Under the pieces are notes generated by a model. It ran no database searches. It saw only the letters and a program-made list of their open reading frames with translations, and was not told the origin of the DNA. A DNA stretch of 64,000 bases from Hormiphora californensis (lineage: Eukaryota > Animalia > Ctenophora). Every line of letters begins with the position of its first letter. Position 1 is the first letter of the stretch. The translations under genes were made by a program, and so were the position numbers. Positions 226 to 64,000 of this stretch are shown here, piece by piece. The DNA is taken from positions 6,758,001 to 6,822,000 of the forward strand of contig CM035360.1 of the NCBI GenBank assembly GCA_020137815.1. Reading direction: 5' to 3'.

Positions 226-3200
226 CTGCTTAGATTGAGTAAGTCGTTTCGCAATGGCCTTACGCATCCCTGTTAGTGGGATCTCTACGTATGCACCATC
301 AGCACTGGCAACAGGTGCAGGAGCAGCGGGTGCAGGAGCAGCGGGTGTAGGTGCCACTGCGGCAACAGGGGCTGCTGCTGCGGGGACAACATTCTCAATA
401 TCAGCAGCCCTAATCACACCATCGGGACCGGATCCTTGGAGCTGCTGCAGGGGGGATGGAGTTGAAGGGAAGAGAAATATTGATCTGTAGCTGTTCGGAA
501 GAAGAGATGTAGAGAAGGGAAGAGGGATTTGGAATGGTGGGAGATGGAGAAGGGAGGTATAAGAGACAGGGAGAGGGAAAGAGAGAACACCAGAGTTAGG
601 TATTGGGCAATGCAATATATGTTACCCAAATTCGAATGATTGCCTTCAAAATTTGTCTAGAATATGATACTTGTGACAAGAAATGATTGATATCTCTTCA
701 AATATAACTTCATTTTAATACTCTAGAACTTCATACGAATATTCATTGCTCAATAACAGTTGACAGTCTTTGGGCGGGGGAGAGTTCTTGATAAAAACCA
801 GCTGCTAATGTCTTTGCTACCCCTGTTTTTTGGACACCAACTCGTGCCTCGGTGCGATTCAACCACCCTCTCTCTCACTCTTTGGTGTTCTCCACTAATT
901 TGATTGCTAGATTTGACTTAATCCAATGTAATGAAGACGCCGTAAATACAACGAGAAAGAGAGAGGGGAGGGAAGGGAGCGAGAGGAGAGGGAGAATAGA
1001 TAGAGAAAGAGGGAGAAATAGAGAAAGAGGGTCGGTCGTTGGCTCGATAACATCTTCACTTAGTTTAGTAAAACAACAGCTCCTTTTATTTTTGCAACAA
1101 AACGCAAAATATTTTCCCTCTCTTTTTATCAAAGTACAGCTGATATATATATATATATATTACCTTCAAGTTTGATGCTGAGATTTTTTAGCAACTTAAC
1201 TATTTAACTTAACTTTTCTTCTATATCTGTATCTTGTCGCTTGAGAAATTTTCTCAAATGTCAACATTATTGGCTGGTATGTGTTTCTTTATTTCAGTTC
1301 GGGAGAAGAGTGGTTAATTGTCAAACTAAATTTCAACGTACAACTCAGTACTTAGTTTTCTTCATGATCTCTCCCACCCCAGATAAAATATTTCGTATGC
1401 GACCTGTCAACTCAAGTACCCATCATATTCTTATCATGTCCCAACCAATCACAACCTCTTCTTCTTTTTCTTCTAGACTGTATCCCCGACCTCGCGGATA
1501 ACTAACCATTCAGTTTTCTTCATATAATCTCCCAACCCAGATAAAATATTTCTTGAAGCGTATGCGACCTGTCAACTCAAGTACCCATCATATTCTTATC
1601 ATGTCCCAACCAATCCCAACATCTTCTTCTTTTCTTTTATCCCTTATTTTTCTTCTATCCACCTTGTTGCTAGGTAACTAACCGACCCACCTTGTTGCTA
1701 GACAACTAACCTCCCCACATTGTTGCTAGGTAACTAACCGCCCCACCTTGTTGCTAGGTAACTAACCGACCCACCTTGTTGCTAGGTAACTAACTGATCC
1801 ACCTTGTTGCTAGGTAACTAACCGACCCAGCTTGTTGCTAGGTAACTAGCCGACCCACCTTGTTGCTAGGTAACTAACCGACCCACTTTGTTGCTAGGTA
1901 ACTAACCTCCCCGCCTTGTTGCTAGGTAACTAACCAACCCACCTTGTTGCTAGGTAACTAACCAACCCACCTTGTTGCTAGGTAACTAACCGACCCACCT
2001 TGTTGCTAGGCAACTAACCTCCCCACCTCGTTGCTAGGTAACTAACCGACCCACCTTGTTGCTAGGTAACTAACCTCCCCACCTTGTTGCTAGATAACTA
2101 ACCGACCCACCTTGTTGCTAGGTAACTAACCGACCCACATTGTTGCTAGGTAACTAACCGCCCCACCTTGTTGCTAGGTAACTAACCTCCCCACCTTGTT
2201 GCTAGATAACTAACCGACCCACCTTGTTGCTAGGTAACTAACCGACCCACATTGTTGCTAGGTAACTAACCGCCCCACCTTGTTGCTAGGTAACATGGAT
2301 AACAACGCAACAGAACTCCAACTAACCCAGCCAGTAGAACGGACCCTCCAACACTACCTGCTAATTGGGTGGAACGTATTTGCAGCTATAGTCTCCCTAT
2401 CCGGTAACATCACCGTCCTCTCTGCCGCTATCCGGTACAGCGCCTTCAAACTGGATAAAGTAACGGTGTTGCTGATTTGCAACATTGCAATAGCTGACCT
2501 GGGGTTCACTATAACCTGTATTATACCCTCCATCTTCACAATATACTGGGAGGCACCTGTTATCGGGAGGTCCCTCTGTATTGTCTTTAACATCCTGGAT
2601 GAGATCTTCCTGGCTGTGGATATCTTCTTTGTCTGTGCCCTCAATATCTCCAAACTACTCTCCCTCATCTCCCCCCTGAGAAGCAGGTATAGACGAAGGA
2701 GCAGTGGGGTTGTTGCAGCTACCATGATATGGATCTTCGGAGCGTTCCTAGTCCAGGGTCTACCGAACCTTCTGTGTAACCCAATCTTCGCTTTTGATAG
2801 GGTCACATACCAGTGCAGCCTGCACATCATAGAAACCTGCCCCTGGGTCAATATCTACTACGGTGCTCTGGTCCTCTTTGGACCCTTCTTGGTTGTCTTG
2901 GTAACGACTATCTGGCTGATACTCCATGTCGTCACGGTGACGTCAACACGCCTCCAGAAACAGGGAATCCTCACTCTCATCCTGGTATCTGTCTCATTCT
3001 TCATCGCTAACATTCCGTTCTGTGGCCTGTTCGCCCTGGTTACCATCAACCACAACTTCATAGTCACCTCCCTCTCCTGGTTTCCTGACCTGAACCGGGC
3101 TGTTATCTACATTCTCAACATCAATATCATTGCCAACCCGTGTATCTACTACCTCTCCATTGCAAGCTTTAAAGAGTTCGTCCAGGGTAGTATTTGCAAC

Positions 3201-62300: not shown

Positions 62301-64000
62301 TTCCAGGTTTCGCGAGTACCAGACAGCCCTCTGTATGGCCTGTATGTCCCTTGGTTTTGGACCCCTCGTTGTCACAGCAACCATAGTCTCCGATTGGAAC
62401 AGATCCTACTACGCCATGGTCCTATACACTATCCTGTTCGGTCCTGCCCCTTCTCTGGGTACCAGAGTCTCCTCGGAACCAGCTGGCTGGCTGGCAGGAA
62501 GGAGAAAGCAGAGCTAGCAATAAGGAAGTTTGCTAGGTTGAATGGGGTCAAGTGGCAGGGGTTCAAGGATATGGAGAGTGAGGATCAGGAGAGGATGATG
62601 GATGGTATAGTTGGACAGTTGAGAACCCTTGTTACCCACCGGGTCCTATTAGTTGGAGACACTCGGACAGATGTTAATCTGGGTGGTGGTCTATGTCACC
62701 TTCTTTGGCCTCAACTACGCCTGGGATAAAGCTCCTACCCAGCACCTCTACAGGGTTCCTACTGGCCATGGGTGTCCAACTACTGGCCTACATCTGTCTC
62801 ATTCCTACCATGAAGAGAGTGGGAAGAAGGAAATATATGGCAGGTTCATTTCTCCTAGCTGCTCTATTCCTGGGGTGCGGTACTACCGATATAGCTCTGG
62901 GAGATGCCGGGTGGTCTGCTGCTAGTGTGGCTAGGATCCTGGCTTTATTCGCAGGTTGCGGGTGCATACAGTGGTATAATGTTGTGGAATGTTGAGCTGC
63001 CCCCTTGCACCCATACCTGGAGCGGTTCCTGGGTATGTGTTCAGCCATCTCCAAATCGTTTGGTCTGGCATGCCCCGCTTTGTTTAGCAGTCTAGCCCTG
63101 AGTTAACAGGTGGGTTCCAGGTTACATTTGGGGTTCTGGCGGGGATGTGTGCTGGAGCAGCTGCTGTCTCTCTAGCTCTATCCGAGACTATGGGCCGTGC
63201 TATTGCCGAGACACCGGAGGAGGTGAAGGCTCGGAGATTGGAGAGGAGAAAGAGAGGAGGAGTTAGAGGGAGTCACCAATGTGTAGCAGACTTGTTCTAA
63301 CCCTCCTTTACATTTGTAAAAGGGTTTCCCGTGTGGGTGAAACAGGGTCAAGCAAGGCAATTATAGCAGACAGAGCTTGGGAGACAAGACTATCAAAGAG
63401 AGAATGTGAGGACGTGAGATAAAGGACTCACATATATTTCAGACTAACAATGTTTTTTTGTTTTATAAAGTTCATTGATGATTCTAACTACGACTTTCAG
63501 TTACTTTTCCGGGGGCCAGTCTGAGAAAACTAAAAGTAATCCCAGTTCAGTGAACATTGAACATTCCACCGATTTTTGTGAACACACAAACTCATATCAG
63601 TAAAATGTTTGAGGTACCTGTTAGGAGCATGTCCATGGCTAGTTTTCTGTTGACAGCTCGACCCAGCTGGACACCAGGGGTGGAACAAAAGAGGCCAATG
63701 TTAACTCCGGGGGTAGCAAACCTAGACCTGGAAATGGAAATCTTGTTTAGCACTGAATTCGGAATTTTTAGCGCTGAATTCAAAATTTTAGCTTGAAAAT
63801 AATTTCTAAACAATAATGTTAGTCATACACCAACCTTACCTGTCTGAGCAGATGGCCATTTGGGATGCAGCGACAAGTTGGCATCCTGCTGCGGTGGCTA
63901 GACCATCCACACTGGCCAGTACTGGTACTGGGTACCTGTTCACCAACTGTAGAGGGGAGAGAGAGGGAGTGAGATACAGTGTAATGTTGGAAACAATTCC
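59380..64000 (-). CDS. ECHDC3: Enoyl-CoA hydratase domain-containing protein 3, 3' part (5' exons beyond the window end)
   Basis: [83 protein letters not shown]..|[25 protein letters not shown]. Confidence 0.93.
60405..63300 (+). CDS. SLC22/organic-cation-type MFS transporter nested antisense in an ECHDC3 intron; last exon appears frameshifted
   Basis: [11 protein letters not shown] (cf. SLC22 IVTEWDLVC); [54 protein letters not shown]. Several frame changes in 62310-63180. Confidence 0.75.
60659..61544. mobile_element. Non-autonomous DNA transposon with poly-G/poly-C termini and 8-bp TSD (agacaatc)
   Basis: agacaatc-(g)n acatgttaatt ... aattaacatgt(c)n-agacaatc. Subterminal ttaacaa/ttgttaa repeats. 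Confidence 0.88.

What the first reader, a model, noticed from the sequence alone, without database searches (positions are those of the whole stretch)
1659..62320. Recurrent tandem amplification of 3' splice sites: most minisatellites here are stacked splice acceptors
Seen in sequence: five unrelated tandem arrays (28 bp x~23 at 1659, 48 bp x~17 at 18167, 30 bp x4 at 30007, 33 bp x~11 at 32885, 41 bp x~41 at 34797) share one grammar, as do at least five 2-3-copy cases (25470, 37040, 50500, 51745, 62245). Each unit is a pyrimidine tract (often with a branch-like CTAAY), then YAG, then the first 3-25 nt of the adjacent exon. The array always ends exactly at the functional exon, and junctions often show intron/exon microhomology. 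The units share no sequence, so this is not one repeat family but a process centred on acceptors. Inference: either a mutational bias at 3' splice sites (slippage or repair tied to splicing or R-loops), or tolerated/selected decoy-acceptor arrays that set the productive splicing rate, like a copy-number dial coupled to NMD. I do not know of this being described as a genome-wide system, but I cannot search the literature.
Basis: partly seen in the sequence, partly recalled or inferred. Interest (0 to 1): 0.88.

Follow-up and report, generated by a model that had tools for sequence, protein, structure and literature searches.

The report
Comb-jelly splice-acceptor "mirage" minisatellites
In this stretch of comb-jelly DNA about one intron end in nine has been copied head-to-tail 2 to 41 times together with the start of the next exon; these are likely tolerated copying errors of a kind already described in lancelets ("mirages"), not a regulatory switch.

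Summary
The window is from Pleurobrachia bachei or a close relative (nested GPCR 97% identical to a P. bachei protein). In my hand-made gene models, 9 of 79 acceptors carry a junction-spanning tandem duplication of 2-41 copies. Of 20 local duplications outside exons and repeat elements, 9 span acceptors (1.4 expected). The repeats occur in read contigs, and copy number varies: 3 versus 4 copies at 30012, plus a further acceptor duplication at 51116 seen only in other haplotypes. This is a known class, the amphioxus "mirage" minisatellites, and this scan has noted it before in other animals. Acceptor exclusivity is overstated: donors are duplicated too (2-3 of 67; Fisher p=0.065-0.23), though all five large arrays are acceptors. 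The shared grammar is likely a survivorship filter, since the last copy needs its own branch point. Duplicated acceptors are C-rich, but C-rich intronic decoys are not duplicated (0 of 28), so an extra acceptor-specific bias remains open. Nothing supports an NMD dial. Which AG this animal uses was not shown; only a relative's RNA matches the last one. The window was picked for these arrays, so enrichment needs a genome-wide test.

The parts
1659..2294 (+). 28-bp acceptor mirage, 23 AG copies, ending 5 nt before the ATG of a nested single-coding-exon GPCR (2295-3329); likely a trans-splice or 5'-UTR acceptor. 18 units begin with GTAACT, so they read AG|GT.
   Evidence: GPCR PF00001; 97% to P. 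bachei P0001
18168..18998 (-). 48-bp acceptor mirage, 17 AG copies (23 nt intron + 25 nt exon), before exon 5 (starts 18192) of an RRM gene (TRNAU1AP-like; name recalled). Distal copy diverged.
   Evidence: RRM_1
25465..25545 (-). Two-copy acceptor duplication (unit 38) before exon 16 (starts 25470) of a Sec7-domain gene (PSD/EFA6-like; name recalled)
30006..30129 (-). 30-bp acceptor mirage, 4 AG copies (3 in a contig of run X5), before exon 12 (starts 30012); older degenerate units extend to about 30195; 4-nt microhomology
32776..32827 (-). 23-bp two-copy DONOR duplication at the end of Sec7-gene exon 8 (donor after 32804); the first donor keeps the frame
32884..33240 (-). 33-bp acceptor mirage, 11 AG copies, before exon 8 (starts 32886); unit junction present in run X5; a relative's RNA contig joins exon 7 to this exon with no unit
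34796..36517 (-). 41-bp acceptor mirage, 41 copies, 22 unit variants with a repeated four-unit block, before exon 6 (starts 34818); 11-nt microhomology between intron and exon
37040..37150 (-). Degenerate three-AG region before exon 5 (starts 37043); below threshold, probably an old mirage
   Evidence: score 6
42780..42895 (+). Three-copy DONOR duplication (period 42, then shorter) at the end of exon 2 (42803) of a small three-exon gene
4416..4478 (-). Copy of an exon end just behind the donor at 4450 of a lipoyl-domain gene (PDH E2-like), creating a second GT
   Evidence: Biotin_lipoyl
50500..50611 (-). Three-copy acceptor duplication (units 31, 39) before CCDC93 exon 8 (starts 50506)
51076..51131 (-). 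Acceptor of CCDC93 exon 6 (starts 51116): single in the window, duplicated (goes back 56 with 11 letters between, unit about 67 nt) in contigs of runs X1 and X6
   Evidence: tables 5, 5c, 8
51742..51810 (-). Two-copy acceptor duplication (unit 51) before CCDC93 exon 4 (starts 51748); covered without gaps by one X1 contig; a relative's RNA contig joins exon 3 at this AG
62225..62321 (+). Two-copy acceptor duplication (unit 46) before exon 4 (starts 62307) of an MFS transporter gene; 5-nt microhomology
   Evidence: MFS_1

Best explanation
These repeats are tandem copies of intron-exon junctions ('mirage' minisatellites) that likely arise as ordinary copying errors and are likely tolerated because splicing still uses the last, exon-adjacent acceptor. 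Step 1 (inferred; short direct repeats shown at 3 readable boundaries): replication slippage or repair between short direct repeats duplicates 28-67 bp across a C-rich, low-complexity acceptor. Step 2 (inferred): selection keeps mainly duplications whose unit reaches back to the branch point, since otherwise the only branch point would feed the first AG. Short duplications are commoner, so units start just at the branch motif, which gives the shared grammar without any function. Step 3 (inferred; matched only by a relative's RNA): upstream copies carry only 3-25 nt of exon and mostly no donor, so exon definition favours the last copy. Step 4 (shown as variant blocks, diverged distal copies and haplotype differences; mechanism inferred): unequal exchange and slippage expand, shrink and homogenise the array, while the functional junction anchors one end.
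For: Anatomy equals the published mirage definition (PMC3087553 passages). Microhomology of 11, 5 and 4 nt at 34818, 62307 and 30012. The intron part starts within -1 to +2 nt of a CTRAY motif in 4 of 10 units examined, or 5 if the 11-nt microhomology at 34818 is counted as exon. Duplicated acceptors are C-richer (0.49 against 0.33, p=0.008). Distal copies are the most diverged in the 28-, 48- and 33-bp arrays, and the 41-bp array has a repeated block of variants. Copy number differs: one X5 contig spans the 30-bp array with 3 copies against 4, and 51116 is duplicated in X1 and X6 but single in the window. Donors are hit too. Similar duplications lie next to acceptors without including the AG (15630-15678, 38718-38786, 42111-42203). 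Frame consequences are mixed. RNA contigs of a relative join exons at the last AG at 32886 and 51748.
Against: Composition alone does not explain the position: C-rich intronic YAG sites outside repeat elements show 0 of 28 duplications against 7 of 18 C-rich true acceptors (p=0.0006, threshold chosen after seeing the data). All five arrays of 4 or more copies are acceptors and none is a donor (5/79 against 0/67, p=0.06). No microhomology can be read at 4 of 9 boundaries, and it is about 1 nt at 2 more. No CTRAY motif is in the last unit at 32886, 30012 or 51748, nor in the particular last unit's own intron part beyond the overlap at 2290 and 25470. AG choice in this animal was not observed; the RNA run is about 85-90% identical and may lack the arrays.
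Confidence: 0.62

Rival explanations
1. Functional acceptors are themselves mutation hotspots: something tied to splicing, transcription or chromatin at 3' splice sites (polymerase pausing, a nucleosome edge, R-loops) raises the rate of local duplication beyond what the sequence predicts. The repeats are still by-products.
For: Enrichment survives tripling the acceptor density (p=0.016). C-matched decoys 0 of 28 and pyrimidine-matched decoys 0 of 130. The one new go-back joint in the 5.5-kb read lay spans an acceptor. An X1 allele has a rewritten tract at acceptor 29701.
Against: Per-site enrichment vanishes when satellite-bearing repeat elements are included (121 of 1822 decoys, p=0.11; pyrimidine-matched 18 of 209, p=0.50; C-rich 25 of 70). 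The acceptor-donor difference is not significant. An earlier AI note on another genome reports donors hit as often (e1-7908560, untested here). A C-rich RNA strand is the less favourable orientation for R-loops (recalled). A conserved anchor copy also prolongs detectability.
Confidence: 0.2
2. Selected decoy arrays act as a copy-number dial: more upstream AGs divert more transcripts into nonsense-mediated decay.
For: The three largest coding arrays (18192, 32886, 34818) would give a stop or frameshift if the next AG upstream were used. Six of the ten cases lie in or beside one Sec7 gene region only if 37043 is counted (5 are in that gene).
Against: Four of 9 coding cases would stay open and in frame. 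The 28-bp array is upstream of the start codon and ATG-free. The genes hit are unrelated. Amphioxus mirages gave no aberrant mRNA by RT-PCR (PMC3087553, PMC3902484; passages). A frameshift or stop is the default expectation (83%).
Confidence: 0.07
3. Upstream copies are leaky alternative acceptors, and duplications whose mis-splicing keeps the frame open are preferentially retained, giving raw material for small protein inserts or new introns.
For: An open in-frame insert results in 4 of 9 coding cases (30012, 37043, 50506, 51748), all low-copy, against 17% by chance (p=0.05). An intron-gain model from mirages is proposed in PMC3087553.
Against: Borderline p, post hoc, and it includes the sub-threshold case 37043. 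No RNA shows such isoforms. No GT occurs in the units of the 30-, 33- and (bar one) 41-bp arrays to close a micro-exon.
Confidence: 0.06
4. The arrays are assembly artefacts of noisy long reads.
For: The window has apparent 1-nt frameshifts in several exons. The 28-, 48- and 41-bp arrays were not checked in reads.
Against: An X1 contig covers 51607-52097 with no gap. An X5 contig spans the 30-bp array, and X5 contigs hold the 33-bp unit junction. Units carry recurring variants in ordered blocks.
Confidence: 0.05

Closest known systems
Amphioxus 'mirage' minisatellites (Adh3, globins BflGb6/BflGb9, troponin C, PGBD5); PMC3087553 and PMC3902484 (passages read); Canestro et al. 2002 known only through these citing papers (not held)
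   Same: Head-to-tail units spanning an intron-exon boundary, retained splice signals, haplotype differences in copy number, diverged boundary units, both 5' and 3' boundaries affected, unit lengths in the same range (10-160 bp there, 23-67 bp here).
   Different: Here in a ctenophore; very dense (9 of 79 acceptors in 64 kb); large arrays only at acceptors; one precedes a start codon (likely trans-splice acceptor). Those papers report single loci, with no density or enrichment test in the passages I read.
Human F7 intron-7 37-bp VNTR (PMC1557585, abstract and outline read)
   Same: A VNTR whose end unit spans a real splice junction and whose identical internal splice sites stay silent; the exon-adjacent site is used.
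   Different: Donor side, explained by 5'-to-3' scanning to the first site. At acceptors the exon-adjacent site is the last one, so that scanning rule cannot be the explanation.
G-quadruplex-driven minisatellite instability, human CEB1 in yeast (PMC2673046, abstract and outline read)
   Same: G/C-skewed units; duplicated acceptors have a stronger C skew (G4Hunter-type score -1.19 against -0.65, p=0.036).
   Different: A G4-like motif (four G3 runs, loops up to 12) is present in only 3 of 9 cases, so it is not the common cause.
NAGNAG tandem acceptors and recursive-splicing ratchet points (recalled)
   Same: Adjacent alternative AGs; the 28-bp unit reads AG|GTAACT.
   Different: Spacing is 28-54 nt with whole branch-tract-AG units; a 28-nt GT-AG unit is far below the shortest modelled intron here (63 nt).

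Membership tests
Mirage minisatellite | Tandem head-to-tail units that span an exon-intron boundary of the same gene | tested here: met
Mirage minisatellite | Most units keep the AG or GT splice signal | tested here: met
   23, 17, 4, 11 and 40 of 41 AG-ended copies
Mirage minisatellite | Copy number differs between haplotypes | tested here: met
   30-bp array 3 (X5 contig) against 4; 51116 two against one; the three largest arrays not tested
Mirage minisatellite | Both 5' and 3' boundaries can be duplicated | tested here: met
   donors 32804, 42803
Mirage minisatellite | Boundary units excluded from homogenisation | tested here: met
   distal copies diverged in the 28-, 48- and 33-bp arrays
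Mirage minisatellite | Normal mRNA is still produced; extra sites silent | tested here: inconclusive
   Only contigs of a relative's run X7 (RNA is a guess by the tool) join at the last AG at 2 sites; no RNA holder listed for this sequence
Mirage minisatellite | Somatic length instability (Adh3) | not testable with these tools
   needs single-molecule reads from one animal
G4-driven minisatellite (CEB1 type) | Units able to form G-quadruplex | tested here: not met
   motif in 3 of 9; no biophysical test
Dispersed repeat family or Introner-type element | Units at different loci share sequence | tested here: not met
   cross-pair null 3 of 6162
NMD-coupled poison acceptor | Upstream AG used in vivo and yields a premature stop | tested here: inconclusive
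   stop or frameshift predicted in 5 of 9; use not observable
Recursive-splicing ratchet point | AG|GT site used as a stepwise splice intermediate in a long intron | not testable with these tools
   AG|GTAACT only in the 28-bp array

The most novel reading that the evidence does not exclude
In Pleurobrachia, working 3' splice sites are duplication hotspots beyond what their sequence predicts, so that roughly a tenth of acceptors carry segregating junction duplications filtered to begin at the branch point. This would be a splicing-linked mutational bias that links the scattered mirage reports across animals, and it would supply thousands of natural alleles for testing how the spliceosome picks the last of many identical acceptors.
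Probability: 0.25. Interest if true: 0.7.

Novelty: new member of a known kind. Interest (0 to 1): 0.38.

Why it matters
It extends mirages from lancelets to a ctenophore and gives a first count: 9 of 79 acceptors and 2-3 of 67 donors in one window, with segregating alleles. If the density holds genome-wide, the genome is a natural experiment on choice among identical 3' splice sites (including a likely trans-splice acceptor) and on intron gain by junction duplication. It also matters for annotation, since stacked acceptors can mislead gene predictors and read mapping. As a regulatory system it is unsupported.

Tried and rejected
No whole genome is held, so no genome-wide test was possible. 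The search for related loci with the GPCR in metagenome contigs found no relative. No RNA holder was listed for 29000-33000; this is no evidence on expression. The G4 motif as common cause was rejected (3 of 9). Reverse transcription of a lariat intermediate stopping at the branch point was considered and rejected by eye, because units include bases upstream of the branch A. A shared repeat family was rejected. The raw pseudo-site scan (427 hits of 2180 sites) was dominated by the arrays themselves. I redid it after dropping sites in 13 junction-linked intervals and 10 microsatellites (1822 left), and again after dropping 8 hand-delimited repeat elements (1189 left); both results are reported. 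For the event test I dropped 3 wholly exonic events and 11 inside repeat elements and merged 2, leaving 20 of 35. Two of the 9 acceptor events (25486, 50535) were assigned, because the segment found stops short of the last AG. An X1 loose end at 30033 hints at a one-copy allele of the 30-bp array, but it is 14 letters and its record is not listed, so I do not rely on it. X5 and X6 joints that replace whole introns (51759-51960, 50509-50773) show divergent intron alleles, not intron loss. Contig depth rises over the 30- and 33-bp arrays but is no copy number. Pfam gave no hit for 6 of 18 pieces, including the pieces I label PDZ and PH from memory. Paper searches found no study of competition among duplicated acceptors or of genome-wide enrichment, so the exon-adjacency rule (Reed and Maniatis 1986) is recalled, not read. 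The Atlas look-up did not complete.
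Full report
ORGANISM AND GENES. The window is eukaryotic and intron-rich. 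The nested GPCR at 2295-3329 is 97% identical to P0001, whose accession names Pleurobrachia bachei, so the DNA is from this ctenophore or a close relative. No whole genome is held. I built 15 gene models by hand, with 79 acceptors (11 of them upstream of a start codon) and 67 donors. Most translate cleanly; a few exons carry apparent 1-nt frameshifts. Pfam supports domains in 12 of 18 pieces (7tm_1, RRM_1, Sec7, CCDC93_N twice, MFS_1, Biotin_lipoyl, SIX1_SD/homeodomain, BTB, TPR, Mito_carr, VTT). Gene names beyond these domains are recalled. The models are not RNA-verified and may miss UTR exons.

THE OBSERVATION. TRF finds the five arrays where stated. Cut at each YAG they hold 23, 17, 4, 11 and 41 copies of tract + YAG + exon start. 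A score for junction-spanning copies 12-130 nt away passes 8 at 9 of 79 acceptors (2290, 18192, 25470, 30012, 32886, 34818, 50506, 51748, 62307). 37043 scores 6. In every coding case the frame continues through the last AG. Pairing each junction with another acceptor's flank reaches the score in 3 of 6162 pairs, so the matches are true local duplications and the units are not one family.

IS IT ENRICHED AT ACCEPTORS? An unbiased diagonal scan finds 35 local duplications, and none in 2 shuffles. After dropping 3 exonic and 11 repeat-element events and merging 2, 9 of 20 span acceptors (1.36 expected; 0 of 10^6 simulations) and 3 span donors (1.16 expected; p=0.11). With the 11 repeat-element events added, it is 9 of 31 against 1.39 (p=1e-5), and p=0.016 even if acceptors were three times denser than modelled. 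Per site, intronic YAG decoys outside repeat elements are hit in 25 of 1189 (p=1e-4 against 9 of 79). With those elements included, the figure is 121 of 1822 and the difference is gone (p=0.11), because their satellites add many dependent sites. Acceptors against donors: 9/79 against 2/67, p=0.065; 3/67 gives p=0.23. Arrays of 4 or more copies: 5 against 0, p=0.06. All of this comes from one window that was flagged because of the arrays, so the effect size is probably inflated.

ARE THEY IN READS, AND DO THEY VARY? Six DNA runs from two samples hold the sequence; I laid X1, X5, X6 and X7 on two stretches (5.5 and 3.4 kb). One X1 contig covers 51607-52097 without a gap, including the 51748 duplication. 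X1 and X6 both show a joint going back from 51131 to 51076 with 11 letters between. This is a duplication of about 67 nt spanning the acceptor at 51116 that is absent from the window: an unlisted, segregating mirage. One 452-nt X5 contig spans the 30-bp array with three AG copies instead of four, and X5 contigs hold the 33-bp unit junction. Introns differ strongly between haplotypes, in line with the elevated intronic indel rate reported for Hormiphora (PMC8527503, passages). X7 (guessed RNA, same species label, about 85-90% identical) has contigs whose loose ends, compared by eye, continue from 51751 into exon 3 and from 32887 into exon 7 with no repeat unit. This confirms the last AG as the homologous exon boundary, but not which AG an array-bearing animal uses.

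HOW IT MOST LIKELY WORKS. Origin: microhomology between intron and exon is 11 nt at 34818, 5 at 62307 and 4 at 30012, about 1 nt at 25470 and 50506, and unreadable at the other four, where the distal copy has diverged. This fits slippage or repair between short direct repeats (inference). Substrate: duplicated acceptors are C-richer than the rest (0.49 against 0.33, p=0.008; total pyrimidine not different, p=0.37). A G4-like motif is present in only 3 of 9. C-rich decoy YAGs outside repeat elements are not duplicated (0 of 28 against 7 of 18, p=0.0006, post hoc threshold), so composition is not sufficient. Either a conserved anchor copy prolongs these arrays, or acceptors mutate faster. Grammar: the intron part begins within -1 to +2 nt of a CTRAY motif in 4 of 10 units, or 5 if the microhomology at 34818 is counted as exon; three units have no such motif. 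I infer a survivorship filter, in which the last copy needs its own branch point. Silence of upstream copies: they carry 3-25 nt of exon, and the 30-, 33- and 41-bp units have essentially no GT, so exon definition would favour the last copy (recalled principle; searches found no paper). Growth: ordered variant blocks and diverged distal units point to unequal exchange. Duplications also lie beside acceptors without including the AG (15630, 38718, 42111), which would make no decoys.

THE NMD DIAL. Using the penultimate AG gives a stop or frameshift at 18192, 25470, 32886, 34818 and 62307, and an open in-frame insert at 30012, 37043, 50506 and 51748. The open fraction, 4 of 9 against 17% by chance, is borderline (p=0.05). 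The 28-bp array precedes an ATG and has none itself. All 13 start codons I located have an AG shortly upstream, consistent with the spliced leaders reported on 56% of Hormiphora Iso-Seq reads. Nothing here favours a dial.

WHAT IS KNOWN. Earlier AI notes of this scan pointed to 'mirages'; I checked the papers. PMC3087553 (passages) describes minisatellite-like duplications of intron-exon boundaries in amphioxus globins and Adh3, at both boundaries, polymorphic in copy number, not disturbing splicing, with mechanism unclear. PMC3902484 (one passage) adds troponin C and PGBD5. PMC1557585 (abstract, outline) is the human donor-side F7 case. PMC2673046 (abstract, outline) covers G4-driven instability. 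Canestro 2002 is not held. No supplements were read. Searches returned no ctenophore case and no genome-wide enrichment test, within an open-licence library. The scan's own notes list many single-locus cases in other animals, none under the word ctenophore, and none for this genome.

VERDICT. Real, present in reads where tested, polymorphic, and a new member of a known kind. The added value is the density, the test of acceptor against donor and decoy sites, and the branch-point filter idea. Interest 0.38.

Noticed in passing
window 25634-28954: A 3.3-kb composite insertion (fold-back element plus a long inverted element with 21-bp satellites) is flanked by a 22-bp direct repeat that begins exactly at the donor GT after 28955 on the minus strand: a long target-site-like duplication of an intron start.
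   Followed up: partly
window 30346-31302 (-): Intronless 315-aa ORF nested on the same strand as its host Sec7 gene, with an AAG acceptor before its ATG; no Pfam hit.
   Followed up: partly
window 2295-3329, 30346-31302, 54661-55701, 60378-63300: Four nested intronic genes (GPCR, unknown ORF, Six-class homeobox, MFS transporter), as reported for Hormiphora.
   Followed up: partly
window, 13 start codons: Every located ATG has an AG 1-27 nt upstream, mostly after a pyrimidine tract, and minus-strand genes are tightly packed: consistent with spliced-leader trans-splicing or operon-like transcription.
   Followed up: partly
window 1659-2294: 18 of the 28-bp units read GTAACT...CTAAC...TAG, a complete mini-intron pattern with AG|GT joints.
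   Followed up: no
window 42224-43245 (+): Small three-exon gene (about 88 aa) with a 49-bp duplication just upstream of its first acceptor and a triplicated donor; no Pfam hit on exon 2.
   Followed up: partly
window 9585-10880, 52400-54175, 56470-59215, 5760-7080: Non-autonomous elements with long inverted repeats inside introns; X1, X5 and X6 contigs run from 52399 into sequence resembling 54180, suggesting the 52400-54175 element is absent in other haplotypes.
   Followed up: no
window 8508-8675, 13717/13365, about 38200, 49466-49523, 56300, 62500-63100: Apparent stops or 1-nt frameshifts in otherwise conserved exons; read contigs lack single letters at 49466, 49471 and 49523, suggesting assembly errors.
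   Followed up: partly
window 1384-1640: About 100-bp segment duplicated directly upstream of the 28-bp array.
   Followed up: no
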